From Flavobacteriales bacterium (GTDB lineage: Bacteria > Bacteroidota > Bacteroidia > Flavobacteriales > UBA7430), in the NCBI GenBank assembly GCA_029247585.1, contig JAQWKY010000090.1, positions 1 to 43,148 of the forward strand: a stretch of DNA of 43,148 bases, in the 5' to 3' direction. Positions 2-4,393 of this stretch are shown here, in pieces. How positions within the stretch are numbered: the first letter of the stretch is position 1; each line of letters begins with the position of its first letter. The notes beneath the pieces are model-generated. The model saw only the letters and a list, made by a program, of their open reading frames with translations. It was not told where the DNA came from and made no database searches. The position numbers and the translations under genes are program-made.

Positions 2-1279
2 CAATACGCCTGCTACACCGGTACTATTTGCAATACCAAGATTACAGGTGTCTGTTCCCGGACATGCAGTTACATCATGAGTACTGTCAGCCCCCGGCTC
101 TGCAAAACCTAGTCCATCTAACTCACTGTAAAGTACTTTTAGATTCGCCTCTGGGACGAACTTAATTACAAAACCTTGTCCGATAGTAAATCGAATTTCG
201 TCGGAAGCCAAGCGCTCTACAATCTTTGCCAAGGCACGTGCTTGAGTCGTTGTAAAGTCTCCCGTAAGAAGTCTTACATTTACCGCAAAGTAGCCCTCTT
301 GCTTTTGAGCAATCACATTACTTTTAAACCACTTATCGTATGCTTCGGCGTCAACATCTACAGCAACGGCTTCGGTTAAAGGCTCCGGTCTTTTAGTCTC
401 TTCATAAGCCTCGTGATCTATGTGAAAAGTTTTATATTTTAAAGCTTTACGCTCTAACTCTACCAATCTTTGAAACTCTTCAACACCAATCTTTTTCACC
501 AAGTACTTTAAGCGTGCTTTGTTTCTTCGGGCTCTTTCACCGTGTTTGTCAAATACACGTACCAGTGCTTCACTATAAGGAATAATCGCATCTTCCGGAA
601 GGAAATCGTAAACCGACTGAGCTAGGTAAGGCTGAGCACCCAAACCTCCTGCAATTACCACTTTAAATCCGCGTTGCTCTACATTATCAATAATCTTTGT
701 TTTGGCAATAAACCCAATGTCGTGAATGAAGGTGTAAGCGCTGTCTTCTTCGTTTGATGAAAAGGCAATTTTCACCTTACGCCCCATCTCTTGAGAGATA
801 GGGTTTCTCAAGAAGAAATCAAACATAGCGTGTGCGTACGGACTCACATCAAACGGTTCGTTTTTATCGACTCCGGCTAAAGCAGAAGCGGTAATATTTC
901 TTACCGTATTTCCACAAGCTTCACGCAAGGTAACATCATCTTTTTCGAGCTCTGCCCACAGTTGTGGTGTTCTATCCAAACTCACGTAATGAATTTGAAT
1001 ATCTTGACGTGTGGTAATGTGAAGTTTTCCTGTTGAATATTCATCCGCTACGTCGGCAATTCTAAGTAACTGGTTCACTTTTGTCTTTCCGTAAGGAAGC
1101 TTAATCCGGATCATTTGCACACCAGATTGACGCTGCCCATAAACCCCTCTAGCCAACCGAAGACTTCTAAACTTATCTTCGTCTAACTTCCCATCTTTAA
1201 ACAGGTGGATTTTTCTTTCCAGCTCAATAATATCCTTTTCTACTATGGGATTTTCAATTTCAGTTCTAAAACTTTGCAT
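2..1279 (-). CDS. Siroheme/[4Fe-4S] sulfite (nitrite/sulfite) reductase hemoprotein, Bacteroidota type; 3' end runs off the window
   Basis: Not in the ORF track; translated by hand from ATG at 1279: MQSFRTEIENPIVEKDIIELERKIHLFKDGKLDEDKFRSLRLARGVYGQRQSGVQMIRIKLPYG...; also HITTRQDIQIH, LREACGNTVRN, GRKVKIAFS and TACPGTDTCNLGIA motifs of NIR/SIR enzymes. Confidence 0.9.
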   Translation of the reverse strand, partial: MQSFRTEIENPIVEKDIIELERKIHLFKDGKLDEDKFRSLRLARGVYGQRQSGVQMIRIKLPYGKTKVNQLLRIADVADEYSTGKLHITTRQDIQIHYVSLDRTPQLWAELEKDDVTLREACGNTVRNITASALAGVDKNEPFDVSPYAHAMFDFFLRNPISQEMGRKVKIAFSSNEEDSAYTFIHDIGFIAKTKIIDNVEQRGFKVVIAGGLGAQPYLAQSVYDFLPEDAIIPYSEALVRVFDKHGERARRNKARLKYLVKKIGVEEFQRLVELERKALKYKTFHIDHEAYEETKRPEPLTEAVAVDVDAEAYDKWFKSNVIAQKQEGYFAVNVRLLTGDFTTTQARALAKIVERLASDEIRFTIGQGFVIKFVPEANLKVLYSELDGLGFAEPGADSTHDVTACPGTDTCNLGIANSTGVAGVL

Positions 1280-1309
1280 GCTATTTGGGGGTTTAGTGTT
1301 TTTGGGTAT

Positions 1310-1340
1310 AAAAAAAAACCTTTCGATGAGGAAAGGCTTT
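1310..1340 (-). terminator. Intrinsic terminator (attenuator) in the reductase leader
   Basis: mRNA AAAGCCUUUC-CUCAUC-GAAAGGUUUU followed by more U's; ends about 30 nt before the reductase ATG. Confidence 0.85.
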
Positions 1341-1363
1341 GTATATCTATGATTTCTTGTTTG

Positions 1364-1474
1364 TCATGAGCATATATCTAACCTTTCGTTTTGTGTACAA
1401 CAACACATTACATAACAGGCACAACAATTCATCATTGCGTTGTTCTGGTTAGTGTATGTATTTGAATTTTTCAT
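1364..1474 (-). CDS. Cys/Met-rich leader peptide 2 (36 aa, MKNSNTYTNQNNAMMNCCACYVMCCCTQNERLDICS)
   Basis: ATG 1474, TGA 1364-1366; 7 Cys and 3 internal Met codons; directly upstream of a terminator and a sulfur-assimilation gene. Confidence 0.85.
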   Translation of the reverse strand: MKNSNTYTNQNNAMMNCCACYVMCCCTQNERLDICS

Positions 1475-1524
1475 GCTGTTGGTTTGTATGGGTAATTTTG
1501 AGTCTGCTTAAATGAAGGTTCACC

Positions 1525-1611
1525 TTAGCAACAACAGCAAGCTGCCTGTGTGGATACACAAGCTGATCTAGAAAGATCATTCGATAGGGCTAAAAAAGTA
1601 ACTTTGTTCAT
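1525..1611 (-). CDS. Poly-Cys leader peptide 1 (28 aa, MNKVTFLALSNDLSRSACVSTQAACCCC)
   Basis: ATG 1611, four consecutive Cys codons (TGC TGT TGT TGC) immediately before TAA 1525-1527. Confidence 0.8.
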   Translation of the reverse strand: MNKVTFLALSNDLSRSACVSTQAACCCC

Positions 1612-1650
1612 CACTTTTAGGGTCTGTAAAGAATTGTTAAAAACTTTTTG

Positions 1651-1683
1651 TAAATATACAACCATAATCGACTATAAAACAAA
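1651..1683 (-). promoter_or_regulatory. Putative Bacteroidota sigma-ABfr-type promoter for the leader/reductase transcript
   Basis: Minus strand TTTG-N21-TATATTTA, one mismatch to the TTTG-N19-21-TAnnTTTG consensus, 40 nt upstream of leader 1. Confidence 0.5.
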
Positions 1684-1858: not shown

Positions 1859-4393
1859 ATGAACTATTTATGGGTAATACTGTTGTTTGCAAGTCCTTTG
1901 AATGCCCAATTTGCAGATGATTTTTCTGATGGCAATTTCAAAAAAAACCCGCCCTGGCAAGGCATAGAAGAACATTTTGAGATAGATGATAAAAACAGAT
2001 TGCACTTAAATGCGCCCAGAGAAAGTGGGGCTTCCTACTTAAGGACAAAGACTGAGCTGTTAGAAAATGCCTCATGGGAAATGTCCCTGACATTAGAGTT
2101 CAATCCCTCCTCATCAAACTATGTAGACTGGTATTTAATGGCGAATGATTCGGTGTTAAAGAATTCCACAAAAGCCTATTTTGTTCGAATTGGAGGTGCT
2201 CTGGACGAGGTTTCACTTTACCGTAAAACCAACGAAGAAGAAATTAAACTTATTGATGGCTTGAATAAGCGCATTGATAGCAATCCTGTGAATCTGCGCC
2301 TAAAAGCCACACAAACCCTAGATGGGCACTGGAGTTTATGGATAGATGCATTGGAGGGAAAGGGCTGGGTTTTGGAAGGTGATGTAAGAGACTTTGAAGT
2401 TCGTGAAACGAGTTACTCAGGCGTCCATTGTGTATACACTTCCACGCGTAGTAATCGATTTTATTTTGATGATTTTATCCTTGAGGGCACGCTCTTCATA
2501 GATAGCATTCCTCCGAAACTAATTGCATCTTCAATCGTAAAAGAAAATACAATCCAACTGAATTTTGATGCTGAAGATCTTAGTCTTCCCTCTTTGAGTC
2601 ACTACAAATTAACCCCCCAATCAGTACGACCCAAACAAGTTCTACAAACCGGAACTAAAATAATCCTCATCTTTGAAAATGCACTTCCAAGTAACGAGCA
2701 TTTTCAACTCAAAATAAGCGGTATATCAGACACTTTGGGCAATCTAATGGCAGATACACTTCTCAACTTTTACAGACAGAAACATCAACAATTCGACCTC
2801 GTCATACATGAGATCATGATGAATCCAGAGCCTACTGTTCAATTGCCAAACGTGGAATATATTGAACTCTTCAATCGTGCTAATTATGCGCTAAATATCA
2901 AAGGTTGGCAAGTAAAAACAAATAGCTCGGTACGGACAATTCCGGAGGTTACTCTCGAAGCTAATGAATACCTCCTACTGATGAACCCGGAAGATTTGTA
3001 TGCTTTTAACAATGCTTTAAAACGCCCTCTGAGCCCATGGGTATACTTAGGCAACACCGAAGGCTATATAGGCCTTTTGGACGAGAAAGGGGCAATCATC
3101 CACGAGGTCCAATACCATAAATCATGGATTCAAAACTCGAATAAAGAACGAGGGGGTTGGTCACTAGAAATGATTGACCCAAAGCATTACTGTGCTGGAA
3201 AAAACAATTGGGGGGCCTGTAAAAACCAAGTCGGCGGAACACCTGGATATTCAAACAGTATAGAAGAAAATAAACTCGATAGTAACCGTGTACATATTAA
3301 AGCGATTGAAGTCATTCAGCAAAATGAAATACAATTTAACTGGTCAGAAAATCTGTACGACTCGACACTTTTCAAAATCGACTACACCTACTTTCATCCC
3401 GAAATTAGTGTTCATAGCATCCACCATATGAGGAACAAAACCTTTGTTGAATTTACAGACAATTTGGAAGAAGGGAAAAGCTATTTATTTAACCCAAGTA
3501 AACTCAAAGACTGCTACAACAATGAAATAGGGCAACACGAACTAGAATTTATAAAAGGGGCCTGGCCCAAAGTAGGCTCCATTTACCTCAATGAATTATT
3601 GTTTAACCCCAAGGTAGGAGGTTATGACTATGTGGAACTTTACAACGCCTCAGAAGAATACGTGGACCTTTCCAAACTTTACCTTGGAAATTACGACAGC
3701 CTTTTTAATGACATTACAAATACAGAGCGCATCAGCTTAAGGCCCATCAACTTTCCGCCAAAGGCCTACCTTGCTTTGTGTGAAAGCAAAGATTGGATTG
3801 AATCAAATTACAAAACAAATGAGCATCTGTTTTTTCTTGAGGTCGATCAGCTTCCGAACCTCCCTAATAAAAAAGGAAGTATCGCCTTGAGTAATCTGGC
3901 TTATGAAATTATCGACAAGTATTCCTACCATGAAGACAGTCATTTCTCTCGATTAGAGTCCGTAAAAGGGGTTGCTCTTGAAAGGTTAAATCCTTCGTCA
4001 GAAGAATGGTTCTCGGCATCATCGACTGAAAATTACGGCACTCCCGGTAGAAAAAACTCACAATTCACTTACTCAGTGCCGAGCAAAACAAAATTAGAAA
4101 TCGTACCCGACGTTTTTACCCCCAATTTGGATGGCAAAGAAGACTTCACAAACATCACATTAGTGCCAAAAAATCCGGTGAAGACAAACATCCGTATTTA
4201 CAATAAAAAAGGATTAGAAGTCCGAAAAATCTGTCAATCGGAATTGATCACTCAGAAAACAAGCTGGATTTGGGATGGGTTGGACGAAGAGAGTCTCGAC
4301 CTACCGATGGGCATTTATATGATTGTTGTTGAATTGTGGGCATCGAAAGGCAAGCCCGAGTATTTAAAGCACCCTGTAGTTATACATTACTAA
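1859..4393 (+). CDS. Secreted lamin-tail-domain protein with T9SS type B (CHU_C / gliding-motility-associated) C-terminal domain
   Basis: Signal peptide; two LTD-like motifs (IHEIMMNPEP..EYIELFN and LNELLFNPK..DYVELYN); C-terminal VFTPNLDGKED..WDG..LPMGIY. Confidence 0.75.
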   Translation: MNYLWVILLFASPLNAQFADDFSDGNFKKNPPWQGIEEHFEIDDKNRLHLNAPRESGASYLRTKTELLENASWEMSLTLEFNPSSSNYVDWYLMANDSVLKNSTKAYFVRIGGALDEVSLYRKTNEEEIKLIDGLNKRIDSNPVNLRLKATQTLDGHWSLWIDALEGKGWVLEGDVRDFEVRETSYSGVHCVYTSTRSNRFYFDDFILEGTLFIDSIPPKLIASSIVKENTIQLNFDAEDLSLPSLSHYKLTPQSVRPKQVLQTGTKIILIFENALPSNEHFQLKISGISDTLGNLMADTLLNFYRQKHQQFDLVIHEIMMNPEPTVQLPNVEYIELFNRANYALNIKGWQVKTNSSVRTIPEVTLEANEYLLLMNPEDLYAFNNALKRPLSPWVYLGNTEGYIGLLDEKGAIIHEVQYHKSWIQNSNKERGGWSLEMIDPKHYCAGKNNWGACKNQVGGTPGYSNSIEENKLDSNRVHIKAIEVIQQNEIQFNWSENLYDSTLFKIDYTYFHPEISVHSIHHMRNKTFVEFTDNLEEGKSYLFNPSKLKDCYNNEIGQHELEFIKGAWPKVGSIYLNELLFNPKVGGYDYVELYNASEEYVDLSKLYLGNYDSLFNDITNTERISLRPINFPPKAYLALCESKDWIESNYKTNEHLFFLEVDQLPNLPNKKGSIALSNLAYEIIDKYSYHEDSHFSRLESVKGVALERLNPSSEEWFSASSTENYGTPGRKNSQFTYSVPSKTKLEIVPDVFTPNLDGKEDFTNITLVPKNPVKTNIRIYNKKGLEVRKICQSELITQKTSWIWDGLDEESLDLPMGIYMIVVELWASKGKPEYLKHPVVIHY

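What the first reader, a model, noticed from the sequence alone, without database searches (positions are those of the whole stretch)
1280..1683. Tandem cysteine-rich leader peptides: candidate two-stage Cys-sensing attenuator upstream of a sulfite reductase
Seen: on the minus strand the order is putative promoter (1651-1683), uORF1 ending CCCC* (1525-1611), a 50-nt spacer, uORF2 with CCACYVMCCC (1364-1474), an intrinsic terminator (1310-1340), then the reductase ATG (1279). The two ORFs hold 12 Cys codons in 64 residues and lie directly before a sulfur-assimilation enzyme; both are too short for the ORF track. Established: amino-acid attenuators (trp/his/thr) use runs of cognate codons, and poly-Cys short ORFs act as cysteine-responsive attenuators in mycobacteria and other actinobacteria. 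Inference: two sensors are stacked here. Stalling on uORF1 would open the uORF2 start, and stalling on uORF2 would favour the antiterminator, giving an AND-like, steeper response to Cys-tRNA shortage. I do not know of a described tandem Cys-leader cascade in Bacteroidota but cannot check the literature.
Basis: partly seen in the sequence, partly recalled or inferred. Interest (0 to 1): 0.92.

Follow-up and report, generated by a model that had tools for sequence, protein, structure and literature searches.

The report
Two cysteine-codon leader ORFs before sulfite reductase
Two tiny cysteine-rich reading frames and a transcription stop signal sit just ahead of a cysteine-synthesis operon and most likely act as a sensor that switches the operon on when charged cysteine tRNA runs short, a control device that seems widespread but undescribed in this bacterial phylum.

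Summary
On the minus strand lie a Bacteroidota-type promoter, uORF1 ending CCCC-stop, a 50-nt spacer, uORF2 with six Cys in ten codons, an intrinsic terminator and the sulfite reductase ATG. uORF2 has the most Cys of 2318 intergenic small ORFs in this genome. Both uORFs are kept in all 5 family variants found.

uORF2 plus terminator is a classical leader-peptide attenuator. A copy of the terminator's 3' arm lies inside uORF2, 8 nt after the last Cys codon. In 10 of 12 terminator-coupled Cys uORFs from several Bacteroidota lineages, the best antiterminator site lies 4-21 nt after the Cys run.

uORF1 belongs to a second type, poly-Cys then stop with no terminator. This type also stands alone, for example before a serine acetyltransferase gene.

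The proposed AND cascade is only partly supported. An 8-bp helix does link uORF1's Cys codons to the uORF2 start (p about 0.01). However, untranslated uORF2 is predicted to give read-through, not termination.

My searches found no description for Bacteroidota. I rate it a new variant of a known kind.

The parts
1680..1683 (-). -33 element TTTG of a Bacteroidota sigma-A type promoter
   Evidence: Read from the sequence. It lies 21 nt upstream of the -7 box. The region is conserved in 4 relatives. That TTTG is the consensus -33 element is recalled, not tested.
1651..1658 (-). -7 box TATATTTA (consensus TAnnTTTG); predicted transcription start near 1646
   Evidence: G001 has the perfect TATATTTG. 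The consensus and its position at -12 to -5 come from passages of PMC9723704. The start site is inferred, not mapped.
1525..1614 (-). uORF1: GTG 1614 or ATG 1611 to TAA 1527-1525; ends in four Cys codons then stop ('poly-Cys-stop' type, no terminator of its own)
   Evidence: The frame is kept in G000, G002, G001, G004 and L159. GTG is invariant in the four aligned leaders (L159 has GTC there and keeps the ATG); ATG is ATA in G001. G004 has an in-frame 33-nt insertion. The Cys run has 4-6 codons and is always followed by a stop.
1528..1539 (-). Cys-codon run of uORF1 (TGC TGT TGT TGC); bases 1539-1532 form the 5' strand of the predicted helix with the uORF2 start
   Evidence: pair probability 0.97 without ribosomes; duplex -13.3 kcal/mol, 4 of 300 shuffles as good.
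1474..1481 (-). CAACAGCA, the 3' strand of that helix; its last base is the A of the uORF2 AUG
   Evidence: The last seven bases (AACAGCA) plus the AUG are invariant in all 5 variants; the first base (C 1481) is A in G004 and L159, so the helix there has 7 pairs.
1364..1474 (-). uORF2, the leader peptide of the attenuator (36 codons, 7 Cys)
   Evidence: Cys codons are kept through synonymous changes (TGT to TGC in G004). L159 has two extra Cys codons. It ranks first of 2318 intergenic small ORFs by Cys count.
1397..1426 (-). Stall zone: 6 Cys codons within 10 codons (CCACYVMCCC)
   Evidence: With a ribosome placed on the first five Cys codons the antiterminator stays possible. With a ribosome on the last Cys codon or beyond, the terminator wins at P 0.95-0.96 (full leader).
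1380..1387 (-). Antiterminator strand GAAAGGTT (codons Glu-Arg-Leu of uORF2); same sequence as the terminator's 3' arm
   Evidence: it pairs with 1338-1331; the composite is -12.5 kcal/mol. All 8 pairs are invariant in 5 variants. It starts 8 nt after the last Cys codon of the run and ends 13 nt before the stop.
1315..1340 (-). Intrinsic terminator hairpin; its 5' arm 1338-1331 is shared with the antiterminator; T run at 1318-1310
   Evidence: (-10.3 kcal/mol). Conserved in 5 variants.
2..1279 (-). 5' part of the assimilatory sulfite reductase gene, the first gene of the controlled operon (it runs off the contig end)
   Evidence: In the same-genus genome G001 it is followed by genes for a tetrapyrrole methylase, a PLP enzyme (cysteine-synthase type), a JAB protein, ThiF+rhodanese, PAPS reductase and a 2-oxoacid:ferredoxin oxidoreductase.

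Best explanation
The 370-nt leader is a sensor of charged tRNA-Cys, built from two cysteine-codon reading frames in series.

Stage 2 (uORF2, antiterminator strand 1387-1380, terminator 1340-1310) is a classical ribosome-mediated transcription attenuator.
- When Cys-tRNA is plentiful, the ribosome runs past the Cys codons to the stop at 1366-1364. There it covers 1387-1380, so the terminator forms and transcription ends before the sulfite reductase gene.
- When the ribosome stalls in the Cys zone (1426-1400), 1387-1380 stays free. It pairs with 1338-1331 before the terminator's 3' arm is made, and the polymerase reads through.

Stage 1 (uORF1) is a separate module type, a poly-Cys run placed directly before a stop codon with no terminator. 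This type also occurs alone before other cysteine genes in Bacteroidota. It adds a first Cys checkpoint on the same transcript.

How stage 1 feeds into stage 2 is not settled. My preferred reading is that a ribosome held on the uORF1 Cys run keeps the uORF2 start open and the spacer shielded. A ribosome that finishes uORF1 quickly lets the 8-bp helix close and leaves the leader bare. Repression then depends either on timely uORF2 translation or on Rho.

Shown here: the anatomy, its conservation and its recurrence across lineages. Inferred: ribosome positions, folding order and any response to cysteine.
For: Rarity: uORF2 is first of 2318 intergenic small ORFs by Cys count. uORF1 is among 9 with five or more Cys.

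Conservation:
- Both uORFs are present in 5 of 5 family variants: G000, G002, G001 (L117 is a near match to it, 85% identical to the window leader), G004 (L013 is the same record; L138 is very close to it) and L159.
- Synonymous changes occur in Cys and neighbouring codons.
- Length changes are in frame: 33 nt in uORF1 of G004 and 6 nt adding two Cys codons in uORF2 of L159.

Antiterminator:
- It is more stable than the terminator (-12.5 against -10.3 kcal/mol) and lies upstream of it.
- With a ribosome footprint at or beyond the last Cys codon, P(terminator) is 0.95-0.96.

Recurrence elsewhere:
- 12 of 80 sulfite reductase loci from Bacteroidota carry Cys-rich small ORFs upstream on the gene's strand.
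- By the same criteria there are 20 of 803 small ORFs on that strand against 2 of 829 on the other (Fisher p 5e-5).
- In 10 of 12 terminator-coupled cases, the best complement to the terminator's 5' arm starts 4-21 nt after the last Cys-Cys run, although the stem sequences differ between lineages. The binomial p is 1e-6, or 1e-4 after collapsing homologous peptides to 9 groups with 7 hits.
- In 10 of 12 cases the 5' arm is mostly paired upstream in the ribosome-free fold that ends before the 3' arm.

Stand-alone poly-Cys-stop uORFs:
- L014, L076 and L090 (L017 lies downstream of SiR), found.
- The second uORF of L006 and L008.
- In genome G021, one lies 77 nt before a serine acetyltransferase gene and one 158 nt before a TonB-dependent receptor gene. 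The pattern matched 8 times, against 0 for the reversed control.

Other support:
- The controlled operon encodes cysteine synthesis.
- No Rfam family explains the leader or the comparable leaders in 8 other loci (where the only match is a SAM riboswitch in L076).
- Contigs from 4 RNA libraries of 4 studies, from a relative about 92-95% identical, cover the leader. One runs on into the gene, 1131-1534.
Against: - No base pair of the antiterminator, the terminator or the uORF1-uORF2 helix varies among the 5 family variants, so covariation says nothing.
- Equilibrium folding depends on context. When only 1480-1309 is folded, the terminator is favoured even with a ribosome stalled on Cys codons (P(antiterminator) 0.01-0.35). 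The model therefore rests on the order of folding, which I did not simulate.
- Single-locus shuffle tests of the antiterminator are weak: p 0.07 for the window, with a range of 0 to 0.23. L055 shows no upstream pairing (0 of 10).
- The terminator of L008 was not found by my script.
- The RNA evidence comes from assembled contigs. These cannot show ends, strand or level, and DNA carry-over is not excluded.
- For stage 1, the helix with the uORF2 start is one of about one 8-mer complement expected by chance in a region this size (my estimate).
- The helix is not matched in other lineages (p 0.47-0.95 for L006b, L008b, L014 and L017).
- In L159 a 99-codon ORF lies between the two uORFs, and uORF1's Cys run does not pair with that ORF's start (p 0.53).
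- Open-frame retention of uORF1 between G004 and L159 is only mildly unlikely by chance (P 0.10).
Confidence: 0.65

Rival explanations
1. The uORF2 start is closed by the helix 1539-1532: 1481-1474. Only a ribosome stalled on uORF1 opens it, and only then can a second stall in uORF2 prevent termination. Untranslated leaders are switched off. Because the intrinsic terminator is not predicted to form on its own, this needs Rho acting on the bare leader as the default off state.
For: - The helix is predicted with probability 0.97 in the ribosome-free leader. It disappears when a ribosome sits on the uORF1 Cys run or stop.
- The best duplex of the Cys run with the following 71 nt ends at the uORF2 AUG, at -13.3 kcal/mol with p 0.013. 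In G004 the values are -15.0 and p 0.05.
- The same principle was shown by mutation in mycobacteria (passages of bioRxiv 10.1101/834739).
- Bacteroidota initiate translation without Shine-Dalgarno pairing (PMC9723704 passage), so start-site structure should matter.
- A Rho gene is present in the genome.
- The 98 nt after the uORF1 stop have 23 C against 11 G.
- Two complete attenuators in series, which give AND logic, exist in L046 and L068.
Against: - Without a ribosome on uORF2 the antiterminator is predicted to form: P 0.79, and it is the MFE in both folds that end before the 3' arm. Closing the uORF2 start would therefore switch the operon on unless Rho steps in.
- The C-over-G excess is only in the top 6.4% of genome windows.
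- No covariation supports the helix.
- The helix is absent for other poly-Cys-stop uORFs and for the ORF that follows uORF1 in L159.
Confidence: 0.25
2. Only uORF2 with its terminator is a working sensor. uORF1 is a remnant, for example of a former upstream attenuator that lost its terminator, or a neutral passenger. The 8-bp complementarity is chance.
For: - Single Cys uORF plus terminator leaders work alone in other lineages: L015, L023, L028 and L055.
- The uORF1 peptide sequence drifts fast: 29 of 32 changed codons are nonsynonymous between G004 and L159 in an ungapped comparison.
- ATG 1611 is lost in G001.
- In L159 the two uORFs are about 350 nt apart.
Against: - The poly-Cys run followed directly by a stop is kept in 5 of 5 variants, although most other codons change. 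In the simulation, retention of the CCCC end had probability about 0 in 20000 trials.
- The run grows to 5-6 codons in G004 and L159.
- The same module type recurs before cysteine genes elsewhere.
Confidence: 0.1
3. The small ORFs encode cysteine-rich peptides with a function of their own (metal binding, redox, or a modified-peptide precursor) and are not regulatory.
For: They are open, conserved frames with many Cys.
Against: - Only the Cys run and the RNA-pairing segment are conserved; the rest of each peptide drifts.
- The frames are tied to terminators with matching antiterminator strands in many lineages.
- They always precede cysteine or sulfur genes.
- No modifying enzyme genes appear among the neighbours I scanned.
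Confidence: 0.03

Closest known systems
Classical leader-peptide attenuators of amino-acid operons (trp, his, thr, leu, pheA of enterobacteria; Rfam leader families)
   Same: A short leader ORF carries a run of codons for the pathway's end product. An intrinsic terminator precedes the first gene. An upstream strand competes for the terminator's 5' arm, and a ribosome that reaches the end of the leader ORF masks that strand. The weak best Rfam hit was Phe_leader (21.4 bits, E 0.65, far below the gathering score of 55).
   Different: - The codons are Cys codons and the host is Bacteroidota, which lacks Shine-Dalgarno initiation.
- I found no convincing anti-antiterminator (1:2 pairing), so absence of translation is predicted to give read-through rather than super-attenuation.
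- A second Cys uORF lies upstream.
Polycysteine short ORFs of mycobacteria (bioRxiv 10.1101/834739) and the Cys leader peptides without terminators of Actinobacteria (PMC1262725)
   Same: A run of Cys codons sits at the 3' end of a small ORF ahead of cysteine-related operons, with no intrinsic terminator. In the tested mycobacterial case, a duplex between the small ORF and downstream RNA imposes repression, and stalling relieves it (passages). uORF1 and the other poly-Cys-stop uORFs found here look like this.
   Different: - The mycobacterial ORFs are leaderless, whereas uORF1 has a predicted 5' leader of about 32 nt.
- The element downstream of uORF1 is another leader ORF, not the structural gene.
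- The phylum is different.
- In other Bacteroidota cases I found no pairing with the downstream start.
uORFC-8-2 motif before cysS in Rhodobacterales (PMC8632094)
   Same: A uORF with tandem Cys codons is followed by a terminator, and it is interpreted as ribosome-mediated attenuation (passage).
   Different: It has two Cys codons only, controls the tRNA synthetase gene, occurs in alphaproteobacteria and has a single uORF.
Tandem attenuators of the Salmonella mgtCBR leader (PMC3641672; search listing and start of abstract only)
   Same: Two short ORFs in one long leader whose translation is thought to set stem-loop choices.
   Different: The two ORFs there are described as responding to different signals. 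Here both carry the same codon signal.
tna operon leader (TnaC) with Rho-dependent termination (recalled; cited as an analogy in PMC1262725)
   Same: A ribosome held at the very end of a leader ORF could block Rho loading next to the stop codon. This would suit poly-Cys-stop uORFs, which are followed by C-over-G rich RNA (122 C against 72 G in nine cases, compared with 143 against 128 after terminator-coupled uORFs).
   Different: TnaC senses free tryptophan through the nascent peptide and induces a catabolic operon. Here the signal would be tRNA charging, and the operon is biosynthetic. Rho involvement is untested.

Membership tests
Ribosome-mediated (leader-peptide) transcription attenuator | Short ORF with start and stop in the 5' leader of a biosynthetic operon | tested here: met
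   uORF2 at 1474-1364 lies between the predicted promoter and the ATG at 1279. The operon content is cysteine synthesis.
Ribosome-mediated (leader-peptide) transcription attenuator | Cluster of codons for the amino acid made by the operon | tested here: met
   There are 6 Cys in 10 codons. It is first of 2318 intergenic small ORFs by Cys count. Cys makes up 1.16% of residues in long ORFs.
Ribosome-mediated (leader-peptide) transcription attenuator | Intrinsic terminator between the leader ORF and the first gene | tested here: met
   Hairpin at 1340-1315 plus nine T, at -10.3 kcal/mol.
Ribosome-mediated (leader-peptide) transcription attenuator | Mutually exclusive antiterminator, placed so that a ribosome at the end of the leader ORF masks it and a ribosome stalled on the regulatory codons does not | tested here: met
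   1387-1380 pairs with 1338-1331. The same placement occurs in 10 of 12 cases across lineages. This is a prediction, not an experiment.
Ribosome-mediated (leader-peptide) transcription attenuator | Covariation that supports the alternative helices | tested here: inconclusive
   All pairs are invariant within the family. Support comes only from different stem sequences in different lineages.
Ribosome-mediated (leader-peptide) transcription attenuator | Read-through rises when the cognate charged tRNA falls | not testable with these tools
   Needs reporter, Term-seq or Ribo-seq work. RNA contigs show only that the leader is present in RNA libraries.
Mycobacterial-type polycysteine small-ORF attenuator (for uORF1) | Run of consecutive Cys codons at the 3' end of the small ORF | tested here: met
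   CCCC then stop; 4-6 Cys in 5 of 5 variants.
Mycobacterial-type polycysteine small-ORF attenuator (for uORF1) | [quoted passage not shown] | tested here: not met
   The predicted -7 box at 1658-1651 puts the transcription start about 32 nt before GTG 1614. This is an inference from the promoter motif, not a mapped start.
Mycobacterial-type polycysteine small-ORF attenuator (for uORF1) | Duplex between the small-ORF region and the downstream initiation region that imposes repression | tested here: inconclusive
   An 8-bp helix to the uORF2 start is predicted (P 0.97; p 0.013). It shows no covariation, is not seen in other lineages and is not seen for the ORF that follows uORF1 in L159.
Any Rfam family (riboswitch or curated leader) | Match at or above the gathering score | tested here: not met
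   the best hit is Phe_leader at 21.4 bits against a gathering score of 55; no family lies on the Cys leaders of 8 other loci.

The most novel reading that the evidence does not exclude
Bacteroidota may carry a phylum-wide, so far undescribed set of cysteine-codon leaders in two module types: terminator-coupled, and poly-Cys-then-stop. These are combined in series in different orders, with each other and, in Pontibacter, with a SAM riboswitch.

In this window the two types would form a true relay. A ribosome held on uORF1's CCCC run unmasks the Shine-Dalgarno-less start of uORF2 and shields the leader from Rho. Only then can a second stall in uORF2 beat the intrinsic terminator. That would be a translational sensor gating a transcriptional one, giving a steep, low-leak response to Cys-tRNA charging.
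Probability: 0.25. Interest if true: 0.8.

Novelty: new variant of a known kind. Interest (0 to 1): 0.62.

Why it matters
Control of sulfur assimilation in Bacteroidota is poorly known. The element here needs no regulator protein, which suits a 1.8-Mb streamlined marine genome.

The comparative data suggest that Cys-codon leaders are a common, modular way to control cysteine genes in this phylum. They precede sulfite reductase operons, a serine acetyltransferase gene and a TonB-dependent receptor gene. Serial arrangements recur.

Because these bacteria initiate translation without Shine-Dalgarno pairing, such leaders are also a natural test bed for how start-site structure and ribosome traffic set gene expression there.

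The predictions are simple to test with reporters. The leaders could also help annotate cysteine-regulated genes of unknown function, such as DUF2061 and the receptor.

Tried and rejected
Riboswitch or known RNA family: rejected. There was no Rfam match in the window leader or on comparable leaders.

Sigma-70 promoter scan: no site in the leader. The tool does not cover Bacteroidota promoters, so I read the motif by eye against PMC9723704.

More family variants for covariation:
- The tool reported 120 matching stretches, of which 80 loci were listed and checked. Only 3 (L117, L138, L159) were true leader homologues.
- They added no varying base pair.

Anti-antiterminator (1:2 pairing): one alternative fold pairs 1452-1447 with 1383-1378. 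The partner is not conserved in G004, so I did not adopt it.

Rho-site idea: the C-over-G excess is only mildly unusual (top 6.4% of windows; trend). I kept it as a possibility only.

RNA runs:
- All holders were assembled contigs with small word shares.
- Laid on the stretch, they cover 1283-1592, 1131-1534, 1314-1545 and 1363-1578.
- One contig ends at 1314, beside the T run, but ends of contigs are not evidence. No contig covered 1720-1900, which proves nothing.

Loci without Cys uORFs:
- Sulfite reductase loci of family f5 (L005, L007, L009, L010) have none. They show a conserved inverted repeat instead.
- 68 of the 80 loci have none by my criteria.
- The device is therefore not universal.

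Other limits:
Table S7 and Appendix D9 of PMC9723704 and Supplementary Data 3 of PMC7366714 list candidate leader peptides and small ORFs. They may already include cysteine leaders; I could not see them.
- My statement that no description for Bacteroidota is in print rests on searches only.
Full report
WHAT IS THERE.

On the minus strand the window reads, in order:
- a promoter-like pair, TTTG at 1683-1680 and TATATTTA at 1658-1651;
- uORF1, from GTG 1614 or ATG 1611 to TAA 1527-1525. Counted from the ATG it has 28 codons, and the last four are Cys;
- a 50-nt spacer;
- uORF2, from ATG 1474 to TGA 1366-1364, with 36 codons. Six Cys lie within ten codons at 1426-1397 and a seventh at 1372-1370;
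- a hairpin at 1340-1315 followed by nine T;
- the ATG at 1279 of a sulfite reductase gene (Pfam NIR_SIR and NIR_SIR_ferr) that runs off the contig end.

The -7 box matches the flavobacterial sigma-A consensus TAnnTTTG at -12 to -5 (passages of PMC9723704), so I infer a start near 1646. The in-frame ATG at 1665 lies inside the promoter and is not kept in frame in relatives.

IS IT MORE THAN CHANCE?

- The genome has 1.79 Mb and 38% GC, and 1.16% of residues in long ORFs are Cys.
- Runs of three or more Cys codons are common in off-frame translation, 246 in six frames. A run alone proves nothing.
- Among 2318 intergenic ATG small ORFs of 8-70 aa, uORF2 has the most Cys (7). uORF1 is one of nine with five or more.
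- No other locus in this genome has such an ORF.

CONSERVATION.

- Sulfite reductase was found in 8 of 41 related genomes.
- The three closest are two of the same genus and one of another genus in the family, with 91-95% protein identity. They carry both uORFs at the same place.
- The metagenome scan added one further variant, L159.

uORF1:
- The GTG is invariant in the four aligned leaders (L159 has GTC there and keeps the ATG), while the ATG is ATA in G001.
- G004 has an in-frame 33-nt insertion.
- The Cys run has 4, 4, 4, 6 and 5 codons in the five variants and is always followed at once by a stop.
- Most other codons drift. Keeping the frame open between G004 and L159 has a chance probability of about 0.10. 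Keeping the CCCC end has a probability of about 0 in 20000 trials.

uORF2:
- The Cys codons are kept through synonymous changes.
- Neighbouring codons show third-position changes.
- L159 has two extra Cys codons.

STAGE 2 IS A CLASSICAL ATTENUATOR.

- GAAAGGTT at 1387-1380 (codons Glu-Arg-Leu of uORF2) repeats the terminator's 3' arm. It pairs with 1338-1331, the terminator's 5' arm.
- The antiterminator composite is -12.5 kcal/mol and the terminator is -10.3 kcal/mol.
- The antiterminator strand starts 8 nt after the last Cys codon of the run and ends 13 nt before the stop.
- In the full leader, footprints on the first five Cys codons leave the antiterminator likely (P 0.54-0.91). Footprints on the last Cys codon, on the Glu-Arg-Leu codons or at the stop give P(terminator) 0.95-0.96.
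- These are equilibrium figures and depend on context. Folding 1480-1309 alone favours the terminator in all states. The argument therefore also rests on folding order: the antiterminator is complete before the 3' arm is made.

THE SAME DESIGN ELSEWHERE.

- Of 80 Bacteroidota loci that encode a related sulfite reductase, 12 carry Cys-rich small ORFs upstream on the gene's strand (at least 4 Cys, a Cys-Cys pair, at least 10% Cys). The other 68 do not.
- By the same criteria there are 20 hits among 803 small ORFs on the gene's strand and 2 among 829 on the other (p 5e-5).
- Family f6 (L006, L008) also has them. Family f5 (L005, L007) does not.
- I examined 13 terminator-coupled cases. My script found a terminator in 12; it missed L008.
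- In 10 of those 12, the best complement to the terminator's 5' arm within the whole leader ORF region starts 4-21 nt after the last Cys-Cys run. The two exceptions overlap the run (p 1e-6, or 1e-4 for 7 of 9 independent groups).
- The stem sequences differ between lineages, so this is covariation at the level of architecture.
- In 10 of 12 cases the 5' arm is mostly paired upstream in ribosome-free folds that stop before the 3' arm. In 10 of 12 cases the complete terminator wins at equilibrium. The window and L066 are the two where the antiterminator stays favoured.

STAGE 1 AND THE COUPLING.

uORF1 has no terminator of its own. The same module type, poly-Cys then stop without a terminator, occurs in several places:
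- alone in L014, L076 and L090, and in L017 downstream of the reductase gene;
- as the second uORF in L006 and L008;
- in the complete genome G021, before a serine acetyltransferase gene and before a TonB-dependent receptor gene. The pattern matched 8 times, of which 3 are intergenic leaders and 5 lie in or opposite coding sequence. The reversed control matched 0 times.

So uORF1 is a recognisable, self-contained kind of element.

Evidence on the helix in the window family:
- uORF1's Cys codons at 1539-1532 are complementary to 1481-1474, which ends in the A of the uORF2 AUG.
- The predicted pair probability is 0.97 without ribosomes and 0 with a ribosome on the run or at the stop.
- The duplex is better than all but 4 of 300 shuffles; for G004, p is 0.05.

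Evidence against the helix as the coupling:
- The helix is invariant in the four close sequences.
- It has no counterpart for other poly-Cys-stop uORFs (p 0.47-0.95).
- In L159 a 99-codon fragment ORF, whose stop overlaps the uORF2 ATG, separates the two uORFs, and uORF1's Cys run does not match that ORF's start.
- Most importantly, untranslated uORF2 is predicted to give read-through. Closing its start would then switch the operon on, unless Rho ends bare leaders.

Rho is encoded in the genome. The RNA after poly-Cys-stop uORFs is richer in C than G (122 against 72, compared with 143 against 128 after terminator-coupled uORFs). In the window this bias is only in the top 6.4% of genome windows.

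My conclusion is that two Cys sensors in series are well supported, but the AND wiring is one of several possible couplings and is not shown.

TRANSCRIPTION.

- Contigs from four RNA libraries of four studies, from a relative about 92-95% identical, cover 1283-1592, 1131-1534, 1314-1545 and 1363-1578.
- They show that the leader, and in one case leader plus gene, is present in RNA libraries.
- They cannot show ends, strand or level, and DNA carry-over is possible.

COMPARISON WITH WHAT IS KNOWN.

Cys-codon leaders are described in:
- Actinobacteria (PMC1262725 passages; bioRxiv 10.1101/834739 passages);
- Rhodobacterales, before cysS (PMC8632094 passage).

Leader-peptide attenuation upstream of amino-acid operons is mentioned for Flavobacterium psychrophilum, and small ORFs reminiscent of leader peptides in long 5' UTRs for Bacteroides thetaiotaomicron. 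Neither paper names cysteine in the text I could read, and their supplements were closed.

Six searches found no description of cysteine leaders in Bacteroidota. No Rfam family covers them.

I file the finding as a new variant of a known kind. The principle is textbook. New are the phylum, the target operon, the two module types and their serial combinations.

VERDICT.

- Confidence that this is a Cys-sensing leader with two serial uORF modules: 0.65.
- Confidence in the specific AND cascade: about 0.25.
- Interest: 0.62.

Noticed in passing
L076:6373-6596 (also L090:6504-6611): In a Pontibacter locus, a SAM-I riboswitch aptamer (Rfam RF00162, 60.6 bits) lies directly before a poly-Cys uORF ending M-CCCCC-S-C-stop, upstream of sulfite reductase. 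One leader would then sense both SAM and Cys-tRNA.
   Followed up: partly
L219 (G021:C1 near 2014637) and L218 (G021:C1 near 1754830): In a complete Flavobacteriales genome, small intergenic ORFs ending CCCC-stop lie 77 nt before a serine acetyltransferase gene and 158 nt before a TonB-dependent receptor gene. This hints at a set of operons sharing poly-Cys leaders.
   Followed up: partly
L159:3907-4384 (minus strand): A metagenome variant of this leader has a 99-codon fragment ORF between uORF1 and uORF2. By eye it resembles the start of a homoserine O-acetyltransferase; I did not run it against a family library. Its TGA overlaps the uORF2 ATG, and the uORF2 Cys run has grown from three to five codons.
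   Followed up: partly
L046:6692-6960 and L068:3452-3775: Two Flavobacteriales MAG loci carry two complete Cys attenuators in series, each with a uORF, a matching antiterminator strand and a terminator. This is a plain double-terminator design.
   Followed up: partly
L011 (G001:C4:230000-239600): The operon after sulfite reductase in the same-genus genome encodes a tetrapyrrole methylase, a PLP enzyme, a JAB-domain protein, ThiF+rhodanese, PAPS reductase and a 2-oxoacid:ferredoxin oxidoreductase. This gene set recalls the protein-thiocarboxylate route to cysteine; the pathway name is recalled, not tested.
   Followed up: partly
L009:3296-3620 and L010:3226-3606: In another family, the operon of a PAPS-reductase-like gene, two sulfate-adenylyltransferase-like genes and sulfite reductase (upstream genes named by eye) has no Cys uORF. 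It has a conserved inverted repeat just before the first gene, and L009 has a nearby 136-aa ORF that looks like an Rrf2-type regulator by eye. Protein-based control may replace the leader there.
   Followed up: no
window 1592-1618 (minus strand): A predicted 9-bp hairpin includes both candidate start codons of uORF1 in its 5' arm. Relatives change a G-U pair to A-U at one position. Its meaning is unknown.
   Followed up: no
window 1859-4393 (plus strand): The divergent neighbour is an 844-aa protein with two lamin-tail domains and a CHU_C type IX secretion signal. It is not related to the leader.
   Followed up: no
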